A stretch of 64,000 nucleotides of DNA, taken from contig NC_091482.1 of the NCBI RefSeq assembly GCF_036971445.1, positions 60,946,001 through 61,010,000 on the forward strand, written 5' to 3'. Position numbers and translations under genes: made by a program. The notes beneath the pieces were generated by a model. That model was not told the origin of the DNA. It worked only from the letters and a program-made list of their open reading frames with translations, and searched no databases. The DNA is from Narcine bancroftii. Taxonomy: Eukaryota. This document shows positions 53,501 to 55,307 of this stretch, piece by piece (positions within the stretch are counted from its first letter, which is position 1; each line of letters starts with the position of its first letter).

Positions 53501-55307
53501 ATCCTGGGTAAGTTTAATTGGGTTTCCTGACTACCTCCGAGGTAGGTCAGGGACCCGGTTGGATTTGCACCACAATGACCCTTTCAAGCTGCCGCATGAG
53601 TGGGGGACTAAGCGGGAAAATTTGGCTCATTTTCCTGATGACAATAAATGCTATTGTTAAGTACATTCGCTGTACTATAGCCTGAATAACATGTGCATCA
53701 ACAGGTGTTCAATGTAATGCACAGCATTACATTTGAGCTGCTTTAATAGCCTGTCTGCAACTATCCTAACTAAGCATGCCTATTGCATAGCACCTGCACT
53801 GAGTTCAGGCTTGGACTGACCAAAACACCTTGCTTTATGGGCAATATACTAGTAGACAAAATATGACAGGAAATCACAGAAAACGTTATATCTTAAAATA
53901 AAAAGTTTTGGGGGAAGAATAATAACATCACCTCAGGAAGAGTGAGGAAATATTCTTGTGGGATAGAGTGTCTGTGGTTAGTAAGGGATTACTTAAGATG
54001 ATTTGTGAGTGGGGGGGAAGGTTGAGAACAACTGCTGACCAACCCCAAACAGCTCTGAGAGAACCACGAGTGCAGAGAGGAGACAGGCCAGGGGAACAAG
54101 CTCAGGCTCCTCTCAAAAACCAGGTTATTGTAGAACCAACGCTCTTCCTTACTGTGACCACACAGACACACCTACACAGAATCACATCCACGGTTGTTCG
54201 CCCTCCATCTCCCCTTCCTCCAAGCCCTGCCGCCCTCACCTCTCGATCAAACCGTCCGGGCCTCCTCAACGCGGGGTCCAAGGCCTCGGGCCTGTCGGTG
54301 GCGCCCACCAGCGCGAAGGTCCTGCGCTCCGGGCTGTCGAGGAGGCCGAGAAGCTGGGCCAGGAGCCGGTGCTCAGCGCCTCGGCCCCGAGCCGCTCTCC
54401 GGGGAAACACGGCGTCCAGCTGGTCGATGAAGAGCAGGCAAGGCCGGCGTTCGGCTCCCGCTCGGCCGAAGAGACGCCGCAGTCGGCGCTCGCTGTCCCC
54501 GGGCCGCGGGCCGAGCAGCGCCGAGGCCGAGACCTCGATGACCGAGGCGCCCAGCTCCAGGGCCAGGCGGCGCAGCAGCCACGTCTTGCCCACGCCCGGC
54601 GGCCCGAACAGCAGCACTCCTCCCGGGCAGCGCAGGCCCAGGCGCGCCGAAGCCTTGGGGTAGAGGAGCGGCCAGGCCAGCGCCTCTCGAAGCGAGGCGA
54701 GAGCAGGCTTGGAGCCCGGCTCCAAGGCCTCGGCCGAGCCTCGGGCCTCCGCCCGGTACCTCTCCGGGCTCAGCACTTCGGCCACCTCCACCTCGGCCCC
54801 GGCCGTGAGCAGCGCAGCTCCGGCGGTCGGCGGATCCAGCCAGCAGACCTCGAGCTGCAGCAGGCCGCCAGCACAGGCCGAGGCTTCAGGGCCTGCCAGT
54901 CGCACCACCAGCCCGGCGCTCAGGTAGACGCCCTTCAGCAGACCGCGAAGCAGCTGCGGCTGCGTCCGGGGGTCGCCGGCCCCCTCGGACACCACCGCCC
55001 GCACGCCCACCCGCCGGGCACGGCTGCAACCGACGGGCTGCAACTGCCCGAGGCCCAGGCTCAGGCCGCGGGGCACAGCCGCCGGGAAGCCCGGGCTCAC
55101 GCACTTGGCATCCAGCTGCAAGAAGCCGTCGGCGCGGTCAGCTCGGGGCCAGGCGGTGCAGAGGGCCACGCCGTCCGCCACACACACCCGCAGCGGGCCG
55201 CCCAGCCGCACGCCGAGCGCTGCCAGAGCCCGGGGCCCCAGGCGGCAGCGCTGCGAGCCGCGGTCCCGGGGCTCGGCCGGCAGCAGCCGCAGTCCCGGCG
55301 CCTCCAT
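35343..55307 (-). CDS. AFG2B: AAA+ ATPase AFG2B/SPATA5L1 (ribosome biogenesis, 55LCC complex), 8 exons, 766 aa: complement(join(35343..35531,43428..43550,45368..45502,47410..47640,48595..48804,48890..49048,49783..49968,54240..55307))
   Basis: N-terminus [11 protein letters not shown]...[19 protein letters not shown]1 GPPGVGKT; D2 [30 protein letters not shown]; all phase-0 GT-AG introns. Confidence 0.95.
35900..38960 (+). mobile_element. Long degenerate CR1 LINE (ORF1 SGNH-esterase remnant plus ORF2 APE/RT) in the last AFG2B intron
   Basis: [12 protein letters not shown]...[27 protein letters not shown]...[26 protein letters not shown]...SKFAYDD. Confidence 0.88.
39567..39915. repeat. 29-bp minisatellite (CTACTGGTGCACTAGACTATCAGGTCCAG) x ~11-12
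   Basis: Near-perfect tandem array seen directly. Confidence 0.95.
40770..41400 (-). mobile_element. Penelope-like element fragment (GIY-YIG C-terminus) with inverted terminal segments
   Basis: [26 protein letters not shown]...LQLDGINID, typical of the PLE endonuclease end. Confidence 0.7.
42605..43015 (+). mobile_element. RTE-clade LINE 3' end (young)
   Basis: [31 protein letters not shown]...[23 protein letters not shown], tail GAAGCCAAGCCAAAGA. Confidence 0.85.
43428..43550 (-). CDS. AFG2B: AFG2B exon 7
   Basis: [15 protein letters not shown]...[22 protein letters not shown]. Confidence 0.93.
45368..45502 (-). CDS. AFG2B: AFG2B exon 6 (D2 SRH)
   Basis: [51 protein letters not shown]. 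Confidence 0.95.
46623..47086 (+). mobile_element. 5'-truncated L1 (ORF2 end, 3'UTR, polyA)
   Basis: 17-bp TSD AACTGCAGAGGTAGAAA at 46606-46622 and 47087-47103; [22 protein letters not shown]-rich tract, AATAAA, A-tail. Confidence 0.9.
47410..47640 (-). CDS. AFG2B: AFG2B exon 5 (D2 Walker B)
   Basis: [25 protein letters not shown]...[13 protein letters not shown]. Confidence 0.93.
48595..48804 (-). CDS. AFG2B: AFG2B exon 4 (D2 Walker A)
   Basis: [16 protein letters not shown]...[13 protein letters not shown]...[19 protein letters not shown]. Confidence 0.95.
48890..49048 (-). CDS. AFG2B: AFG2B exon 3
   Basis: [26 protein letters not shown]...[24 protein letters not shown]; acceptor AAG slightly uncertain. 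Confidence 0.88.
49783..49968 (-). CDS. AFG2B: AFG2B exon 2 (D1 lid)
   Basis: [15 protein letters not shown]...[16 protein letters not shown]...SSQ|GTAAGG. Confidence 0.93.
50403..50855 (+). mobile_element. RTE-clade LINE 3' end (young), near-identical to 42605-43015
   Basis: [18 protein letters not shown]...; TSD ATCTTATC at 50395-50402 and 50856-50863. Confidence 0.88.
52008..52753 (+). mobile_element. Internally deleted DNA transposon, probably Chapaev3-like (CMC superfamily)
   Basis: [23 protein letters not shown]...EKRYQ...[19 protein letters not shown]; imperfect TIR TGGACA..GCTTCC; partial copies at 53630-53903 (-) and 57045-57212 (+). Family assignment is from memory of the motif. 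Confidence 0.65.
54240..55307 (-). CDS. AFG2B: AFG2B exon 1 (N domain plus D1 core)
   Basis: GCCATGG start at 55307; ends PGRFDRE|GTGAGG; 1068 nt. Confidence 0.92.

What the first reader, a model, noticed from the sequence alone, without database searches (positions are those of the whole stretch)
54280..54440. AFG2B D1 active site carries a reciprocal Walker-B E->Q and sensor-1 N->D swap
Seen: D1 Walker B reads LLFIDQLD (CAG codon at 54420-54422, minus strand) and sensor 1 reads GATDRP (GAC at 54294-54296). Walker A (GPPGVGKT) and the Arg fingers (LRRPGRFD) are intact, and D2 is canonical (FLDEID, ATNRP). Established: classic-clade AAA ATPases use hhhhDE and a sensor-1 Asn, both positioning the catalytic water; E->Q is the standard hydrolysis-dead substrate-trap mutation. 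From memory, human SPATA5L1 D1 has DE and ATNRP. Inference: two single-base changes that exchange acid and amide between two adjacent catalytic positions suggest either a natural ATP-binding-only D1 site in the SPATA5-SPATA5L1 heterohexamer or a compensatory move of the catalytic base to sensor 1.
Basis: partly seen in the sequence, partly recalled or inferred. Interest (0 to 1): 0.72.

Follow-up and report, generated by a model that had tools for sequence, protein, structure and literature searches.

The report
Rays' AFG2B lacks D1 catalytic glutamate
In every ray examined, an essential ribosome-maturation motor protein carries, in the first of its two ATP sites, the same Glu-to-Gln change that biochemists use to cripple such enzymes plus a neighbouring Asn-to-Asp change; sharks lost the same glutamate another way, so this site is likely a weakened or dead one, with the intact second site likely doing the work.

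Summary
Both codons are real. Spliced contigs from other samples read them identically. The gene is AFG2B/SPATA5L1 of the electric ray Narcine bancroftii. The DQ + TD pair is ray-wide: 8 of 8 named rays and skates. All 9 sharks also lack the glutamate, but as DD with Ser (6) or Asn (3). All 209 other vertebrate records, chimaera included, keep Glu, and D2 is canonical throughout. Four non-vertebrate AFG2B-clade proteins lost the Glu; all have Ser at sensor 1, none Asp, and one pairs Gln with Ser. Rays also lost the GGL linker, and D1 shows excess change. In human cells the equivalent E304Q only weakly reduces rescue, while the D1+D2 double mutant fails. Best reading (~0.65): a lineage-fixed, catalytically weakened D1, tolerated because D2 covers for it; the same kind of site as NSF D2. 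A catalytic base moved to sensor 1 is not excluded (~0.15): the lytic water touches both residues in p97. No paper describing this was found, nor any earlier scan note.

The parts
54240..55307 (-). AFG2B exon 1 coding part (aa 1-356: N-domain and D1 large subdomain); GC 76%, GC3 87%
   Evidence: donor GT right after 54240; spliced contigs break off at 54240
54711..54719 (-). P197-G198-S199, in place of the conserved G-G-[L/M] N-D1 linker motif; all 8 named rays have Pro at the first Gly position, sharks keep GGL
   Evidence: the motif's role in holding adenine is recalled, not tested; model pLDDT <50 at 189-197
54582..54605 (-). D1 Walker A GPPGVGKT (K241 kept in all; T242 is Ser in 4 of 8 rays; GPS in the skates)
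54414..54431 (-). D1 Walker B FIDQLD; D295 kept, Q296 (CAG, 54420-54422) replaces the catalytic Glu (human E304)
   Evidence: at the C-terminal end of strand 290-295 in the model
54288..54305 (-). D1 sensor 1 GATDRP; D338 (GAC, 54294-54296) replaces the Asn
   Evidence: at the C-terminal end of strand 331-337 in the model
54246..54269 (-). D1 arginine fingers LRRPGRFD (R349, R352), which serve the neighbouring subunit's site; kept in all records compared
49783..49968 (-). Exon 2 (about aa 357-418), D1 lid with GYVGADL at 49834-49854; 0 of 30 conserved lid positions changed in the ray or shark majority
   Evidence: lower boundary approximate (tblastn)
48703..48726 (-). D2 Walker A GPPGCAKT, canonical
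47584..47601 (-). D2 Walker B FLDEID, canonical (E558, GAG at 47590-47592)
45401..45460 (-). D2 sensor 1 AATNRP (N636, AAT at 45449-45451) and arginine fingers LLRPGRFD, canonical
35346..55307 (-). Whole AFG2B coding span, 8 exon blocks, 766-aa protein P0001
   Evidence: tblastn of P0001 on the window; identity to the annotated protein

Best explanation
Rays carry an intact, spliced AFG2B gene whose first ATPase site has Gln for the Walker B Glu and Asp for the sensor-1 Asn; this D1 site is likely catalytically weakened or dead, and likely tolerated because the intact D2 site supplies the hydrolysis this subunit needs. SHOWN: the substitutions; their fixation in all sampled rays; a different loss of the same Glu in all sampled sharks; canonical D2; canonical D1 in the same genome's AFG2A. 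FROM PAPERS: Glu is the base and E->Q cuts p97 activity about 20-fold; human E304Q is nearly tolerated unless D2 is also disabled. INFERRED: constraint on D1 chemistry relaxed on the elasmobranch and ray stems. Once hydrolysis no longer mattered, sensor 1 drifted (Asp in rays, Ser in most sharks), helped by GC pressure in a CpG-island exon. D1 now mainly serves as scaffold: it keeps the ring, may still bind nucleotide through the P-loop Lys and Walker B Asp, and lends its arginine fingers to the neighbouring AFG2A site.
For: (1) Glu is absent in 17 of 17 named elasmobranch species but present in 209 of 209 other vertebrate records; it is lost in two ways (Q in 8 rays, D in 9 sharks), with three sensor-1 states (D, S, N). 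(2) In the 74-leaf AFG2B-like clade, the 4 non-elasmobranch leaves lacking Glu (DQ, KD, DA, DR) all have sensor-1 Ser, against 2 of the 63 leaves with Glu; none has Asp; D2 Walker B and sensor 1 are canonical in all 4. (3) Conserved D1-large positions changed at 16 of 76 in rays and 11 of 76 in sharks, against 7 and 5 of 104 in D2 (Fisher p 0.006 and 0.033). The D1/D2 branch-length ratio is 3.6 on the elasmobranch stem and 4.7 on the ray stem, against 1.55 elsewhere. (4) Rays also replaced GGL with PG[S/P] or PEP. (5) Human SPATA5L1 E304Q only weakly reduced rescue, E565Q rescued fully, the double failed (bioRxiv 10.1101/2025.11.07.687187, passages); E304Q had only a minor effect on RLP24 release (PMC12019325, section 8). 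(6) The shark pattern DD[M/I][D/E] with SS[R/K] matches NSF D2 in this same genome (VVVDDIE, GTTSRK), a domain described as degenerate in PMC5070193 (passages). (7) Own-genome AFG2A D1 is canonical ([26 protein letters not shown]).
Against: Human E304Q does lower the complex's ATPase activity and costs slightly more than the D2 mutant in rescue, so D1 hydrolysis is useful in humans; Glu is held in 209 of 209 other vertebrate records. After the ray stem, D1 returns to near-background rate (ratio 1.71) and Q and D never change in 8 rays, which could mean selection for this exact pair. Acid and amide are exchanged around a water that both residues touch in p97. Part of the D1 acceleration may be GC pressure on exon 1, though similarly GC-rich non-elasmobranch records show only 3-5 such changes against 11-18. 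No activity was measured. No squalomorph shark was found in three searches.
Confidence: 0.65

Rival explanations
1. Acid-amide swap: D338 takes over as general base for the lytic water and Q296 orients it, so ray D1 remains a working ATPase with mirrored chemistry.
For: In p97 QM/MM the attacking water is hydrogen-bonded to both Glu305 and sensor-1 Asn348, within 3 A of an Asn nitrogen (PMC12529919 section 3.2), so an Asp there could reach it. Net charge and the acid-amide pair are conserved. Q and D are invariant in 8 of 8 rays, and D1 slows again in the ray crown. The Walker B Asp and the Ser/Thr after the P-loop Lys, proposed as the final proton acceptor in PMC9599734 (passages), are kept.
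Against: It arose once, so there is no covariation. Other losses of Glu pair with Ser, including Q with S (P0349), and sharks manage without a sensor-1 acid. Invariance in rays is within chance. Rays carry further damage nearby (GGL lost; Walker A T->S in 4 of 8; G325 changed in most). In the p97 model the strong bond to the water is to the Thr347-Asn348 backbone amide rather than the side chain. No natural or engineered example turned up in searches.
Confidence: 0.15
2. Tuned nucleotide lock: Q stops hydrolysis and the sensor-1 Asp tightens ATP/ADP binding as in DnaA, so ray D1 is selected as a permanently loaded structural site that stabilises the 4:2 ring.
For: DnaA sensor 1 (Asp269) contributes to 10-100 nM nucleotide affinity (PMC5742627, passages). 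ATP-gamma-S stabilises 55LCC (PMC11055677 and the 2025 preprint, passages). K241 and D295 are kept in all rays. Burst of change on the ray stem followed by stasis.
Against: The GGL linker, recalled to contact adenine in p97, has Pro at its first Gly in all 8 rays. The residue after Walker A is Arg or Trp. DnaA belongs to another AAA+ clade. Sharks do without the Asp.
Confidence: 0.13
3. Assembly error, RNA editing back to Glu/Asn, or a decaying duplicate beside a canonical copy.
For: None beyond the oddity of the motif.
Against: Identical codons in spliced contigs of four other samples. Same residues in 8 named species. Open frame and canonical D2. No second AFG2B D1 among the 62 and 90 candidates scored in the own genome (lower bounds).
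Confidence: 0.02

Closest known systems
Human AFG2B/SPATA5L1 of the 55LCC complex (PDB 9LGO, 8RHN)
   Same: Orthologue: best PDB sequence hit and best fold hit; N-D1-D2 layout; non-aromatic D1 pore loop (Arg in S/P-R-P-G); canonical D2.
   Different: Human D1 has DE, ATN and GGL and contributes measurable ATPase; ray D1 has DQ, ATD and PG[S/P]. Ray D1 resembles the engineered E304Q mutant plus a second change.
NSF D2 (degenerate AAA module of a Cdc48-family double ring)
   Same: Loss of the Walker B Glu and sensor-1 Asn in one of two modules. Shark AFG2B D1 (DD[M/I][D/E], SS[R/K/S]) matches NSF D2 of this genome (VVVDDIE, GTTSRK).
   Different: NSF degenerates D2 family-wide; here it is D1, only in elasmobranchs, and in only two of six subunits. 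Rays use Q/D, not D/S. Arginine fingers are kept here.
Pex1/Pex6 D1 domains
   Same: Heterohexamer with a non-catalytic D1 and working D2 (PMC5070193, passages).
   Different: Pex1/6 D1 lost Walker A, Walker B and the arginine fingers in all subunits; here the P-loop and fingers stay and the partner AFG2A D1 is canonical.
DnaA sensor-1 Asp269
   Same: Asp at sensor 1 (PMC5742627, passages).
   Different: Initiator clade; keeps an acidic second Walker B residue (DD, recalled) and hydrolyses ATP; no Gln.

Membership tests
AFG2B / SPATA5L1 (Spaf-like) | N-D1-D2 protein closest to human AFG2B rather than AFG2A or p97 | tested here: met
   phmmer 328 bits to 9lgo_F against 217 to AFG2A and 207 to p97; Foldseek best hit 9lgo_C/F
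AFG2B / SPATA5L1 (Spaf-like) | Nests among annotated AFG2B orthologues in a tree | tested here: met
   Rays + sharks 1.0, with chimaera 0.975, vertebrate clade 0.998 local support
AFG2B / SPATA5L1 (Spaf-like) | Non-aromatic D1 pore loop 1 (human R274) | tested here: met
   GPRPGDSE aligns to human GSRPGETE
AFG2B / SPATA5L1 (Spaf-like) | Assembles 4:2 with AFG2A plus CINP-C1orf109 | not tested
   AFG2A is present in the genome; CINP and C1orf109 were not searched; no binding job sent
Canonical active classic-clade AAA site (p97 D1 type) | Walker A Lys-Thr/Ser and Walker B Asp | tested here: met
   K241, T/S242, D295 in 8 of 8 rays
Canonical active classic-clade AAA site (p97 D1 type) | Walker B catalytic Glu | tested here: not met
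   Q in 8 of 8 rays, D in 9 of 9 sharks
Canonical active classic-clade AAA site (p97 D1 type) | Sensor-1 Asn | tested here: not met
   D in 8 of 8 rays; PMC12529919 lists Asp among the residues typical of sensor 1 in AAA+ generally
Canonical active classic-clade AAA site (p97 D1 type) | GG linker before the AAA core | tested here: not met
   PG[S/P] or PEP in rays; GGL in sharks
Degenerate AAA module (NSF D2, Pex1/Pex6 D1 type) | Catalytic motifs altered in one module while the other stays canonical | tested here: met
Degenerate AAA module (NSF D2, Pex1/Pex6 D1 type) | Little or no ATP hydrolysis at that module | not testable with these tools
   needs an assay; inferred from p97 and human E->Q data
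Degenerate AAA module (NSF D2, Pex1/Pex6 D1 type) | Loss of arginine fingers (Pex1/Pex6 D1) | tested here: not met
   R349 and R352 kept in all records, as expected if they serve an active AFG2A neighbour
DnaA-type sensor-1 Asp site | Very high nucleotide affinity conferred by sensor-1 Asp | not testable with these tools
   Asp present; affinity not measurable here

The most novel reading that the evidence does not exclude
Rays evolved a working AAA+ ATPase site with mirrored chemistry: the general base moved from Walker B to sensor 1 (Q296/D338), a natural second-site suppressor of the standard E->Q 'dead' mutation, fixed across all four ray orders sampled.
Probability: 0.15. Interest if true: 0.78.

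Novelty: new variant of a known kind. Interest (0 to 1): 0.45.

Why it matters
55LCC is pan-essential in human cells and mutated in neurodevelopmental disease, and how work is divided among its ATPase sites is an open question. Rays and sharks are a natural experiment: whole vertebrate lineages live without the AFG2B D1 glutamate while D2, the arginine fingers and (in this genome) AFG2A D1 stay intact. That independently supports the D1/D2 redundancy seen in human cells and marks which D1 features (P-loop Lys, Walker B Asp, arginine fingers, lid) are indispensable, useful when reading patient variants. If the swap restores catalysis, it would be a natural suppressor of the E->Q trap mutation used across the AAA+ field. 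One double mutant in an existing rescue assay decides it.

Tried and rejected
Second canonical AFG2B copy: none among the candidates scored. Narcine-only oddity, e.g. tied to the electric organ: rejected, the pair is ray-wide. Pure GC-bias explanation: GC-rich non-elasmobranch exon-1 proteins keep E and N and show 3-5 changes against 11-18; it remains a contributor. Link to urea retention: chimaera and coelacanth records keep E and N (their urea physiology is recalled). Searching for other Q/D sites with the D1 region returned only canonical Cdc48-type proteins besides the elasmobranchs; I tabulated motifs only for records above the AFG2B score cut (253 of 327). Three homolog searches found no squalomorph shark, whale shark or zebra shark; lamprey and hagfish were not identified either. 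The AlphaFold model (mean pLDDT 72, pTM 0.52, no ligand) confirms only that both residues sit at the usual strand ends; side-chain geometry could not be read. No complex prediction was sent. Literature search was swamped by general elasmobranch papers (0 of the 40 listed held AFG2B or SPATA5L1); searches found nothing; PMC6160233 (passages) gave no D2 motif detail. The eight scan notes concern unrelated prokaryotic loci. The order of substitutions on the tree was not reconstructed.

Full report
OBSERVATION. The minus strand encodes a 356-residue first exon from 55307 to 54240. Q296 is CAG at 54420-54422 (LLFIDQLD) and D338 is GAC at 54294-54296 (GATDRP); Walker A and LRRPGRFD are as described. 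D2 motifs are canonical. Human AFG2B has FLDEMD and GATNRP. The protein is identical to annotated AFG2B of Narcine bancroftii (P0001). Eight of 10 listed runs were laid as contigs. Four samples other than the possible source show 0 differing letters over both codons and splice into exon 2. A contig of organism C differs at 21 letters, none of the 15 listed in either codon.

DISTRIBUTION IN VERTEBRATES. From 327 proteins, 253 passed a score cut against chimaera AFG2B. Twelve archaeal Cdc48 were then dropped, leaving 241: 32 elasmobranch records and 209 others (records include isoforms and are mostly teleosts and birds). Rays: 8 of 8 named species (Narcine, Pristis, two Mobula, Hypanus, Hemitrygon, Amblyraja, Leucoraja; four orders, classification recalled) have DQ and TD, as do 3 unnamed skate-like records; a fourth lacks D1. 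Sharks: 9 of 9 species (all galeomorphs, recalled) have DD; sensor 1 is Ser in 6 and Asn in 3, and the preceding Thr is Ser in all 9. Others, including chimaera: Glu in 209 of 209; sensor 1 Asn in 206 and Ser in 3 (Menidia, Upupa, Tiliqua). D2 Lys, Thr, Asp, Glu, Asn and both Arg are unchanged in all three groups. So the real finding is wider than the window: elasmobranchs lack the D1 catalytic Glu, by two different substitutions.

MORE THAN TWO SITES CHANGED. Rays replaced the GG[L/M] linker with PG[S/P] or PEP; four have Walker A GKS and the skates GPS. Of 76 D1-large positions at least 95% conserved in the 209 others, the majority residue differs at 16 in rays and 11 in sharks. For D2 the figures are 7 and 5 of 104 (Fisher p 0.006 and 0.033), and for the D1 lid 0 of 30. 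On a fixed species tree the D1/D2 branch-length ratio is 3.59 on the elasmobranch stem, 4.73 on the ray stem, 1.31 on the shark stem, 1.71 in the ray crown, 2.60 in the shark crown and 1.55 outside elasmobranchs (no error bars). Confound: exon 1 is GC-rich (GC3 87%) and elasmobranch exon-1 proteins are shifted to G/A/R/P. The three equally shifted non-elasmobranch records have only 3-5 such changes against 11-18 and keep E and N; the conserved set was defined on the 'others', which biases their counts low.

IS Q COUPLED TO D? A profile search of 50% representatives gave 150 hits; 148 new ones plus 23 references were aligned and 170 of 171 treed. In the 74-leaf AFG2B-like clade (local support 0.89) the 68 non-elasmobranch leaves are: 61 E/N, 2 E/S, 1 with a gap, and 4 without Glu. 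Those four are P0349 (DQ, unnamed), P0452 (KD, unnamed), P0470 (DA, Nucella) and P0468 (DR, metagenome), all with sensor-1 Ser and canonical D2 Walker B and sensor 1. P0349 and P0452 are long-branch sisters and may be one event; P0470 may be a poor gene model. One AFG2A-like protein (P0408, Pinctada) has DD with Val. Loss of Glu therefore goes with loss of the sensor-1 Asn, usually to Ser, and Gln occurs without Asp. That is joint relaxation, not an acid-amide rule. Within rays 114 of 159 D1 positions are invariant; two average sites would both stay unchanged with P about 0.37, two of the fastest class with P about 0.07, so stasis of Q and D is at most a hint of selection.

CONTEXT IN THE RING. 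AFG2A of the same genome has a canonical D1. No second AFG2B D1 was found among the scored candidates. The AFG2B D1 arginine fingers are invariant; they act on the neighbour's site, which explains their retention whatever this site does. NSF D2 in this genome reads VVVDDIE and GTTSRK, the shark pattern. A fidgetin-like gene reads IFISEVD and ATSKP, showing again that sensor-1 Ser accompanies a changed Walker B.

LITERATURE. PMC12019325 (section 8 read whole): 4:2 ring; E304Q lowers complex ATPase but has only a minor effect on RLP24 release; the D1 pore loop lacks an aromatic residue. bioRxiv 10.1101/2025.11.07.687187 (passages): SPATA5L1 E304Q only weakly reduces rescue, E565Q rescues fully, the double fails; both SPATA5 single mutants fail. 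PMC11055677 (passages): Walker A and B residues are needed for viability; I saw no single-domain data. PMC12529919 (section 3.2 whole plus passages): Glu305 is the base, E->Q gives a 20-fold drop, and the lytic water is held by Asn348 (strongly via the backbone amide) and by Glu305. PMC5742627 (passages): DnaA sensor 1 contributes to very high affinity. PMC5070193 (passages): degenerate modules named are Pex1/Pex6 D1 and NSF D2; Spaf-like is lost in several lineages; no Spaf-like D1 degeneration in the passages seen. PMC9599734 (passages): alternative view with the Walker B Asp as final proton acceptor. Searches found no description of the elasmobranch state; subscription papers are largely outside the library and supplements were not read.

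MECHANISM. Most likely (0.65) the D1 site of ray AFG2B hydrolyses ATP poorly or not at all. Human data show that one working AFG2B site suffices, and rays keep D2 strictly. The D1 site drifted on the elasmobranch and ray stems and then settled as a scaffold that keeps its P-loop, Walker B Asp, lid and trans arginine fingers. The sensor-1 Asp is then one of several possible outcomes; N->D and N->S are both single A->G changes from an Asn codon (inference; ancestral codons unknown). The relocated-base reading (0.15) is chemically conceivable because the same water touches both residues, but it rests on one evolutionary event. A DnaA-like tight-binding lock (0.13) is weakened by the loss of the GGL linker. 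Against the main reading: human D1 is active and slightly more needed than D2, and Glu is held everywhere else in vertebrates, so why elasmobranchs could lose it is unexplained.

VERDICT. Real, lineage-wide, not found in print; a new variant of a known kind (one degenerate module in a Cdc48-family double ring). Interest 0.45; 0.78 if the swap proves catalytic.

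Noticed in passing
P0007-P0012, P0067, P0136, P0138, P0139 (shark AFG2B D1): All 9 sharks have Walker B DD and sensor 1 S[S/N], the NSF-D2 pattern: a second, different loss of the same glutamate.
   Followed up: yes
window 48592-48807 (-), protein P0002: Annotated isoform X2 (696 aa) skips the exon with D2 Walker A; if made, it would have neither ATPase site intact.
   Followed up: no
window 55503-56252: GC-rich 29-bp minisatellite, about 27 copies, about 200 bases upstream of the AFG2B start codon, with a (GGGTA)n tract at 55472-55510 and a 25-bp repeat at 56306-56397.
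   Followed up: no
P0408 (Pinctada imbricata, 889 aa): AFG2A-like protein with degenerate D1 (MDDVD, ATVNP, GPGG P-loop), although human AFG2A D1 is essential; may be a second copy or a gene-model error.
   Followed up: partly
P0349, P0452 (unnamed), P0470 (Nucella), P0468: Further AFG2B-clade proteins with D1 lacking the Walker B Glu (DQ, KD, DA, DR), all with sensor-1 Ser and canonical D2 Walker B and sensor 1.
   Followed up: partly
L003 (G000:C9:289685249-289688689) and L004 (G000:C24:68223178-68226606): Two single-exon fidgetin-like genes (names recalled) with changed Walker B (ISEVD, ISELD) and sensor 1 (ATSKP, GTRHP); L002 is canonical.
   Followed up: no
L016 (G000:C8:245.68 Mb) and L017 (G000:C8:71.94 Mb): Two p97/VCP-like genes on the same contig with nearly identical D2 Walker A exons.
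   Followed up: no
window 42591-43253 and 50382-50922: Two near-identical intronic stretches with LINE-like reading frames inside AFG2B introns (identity as LINE recalled).
   Followed up: no
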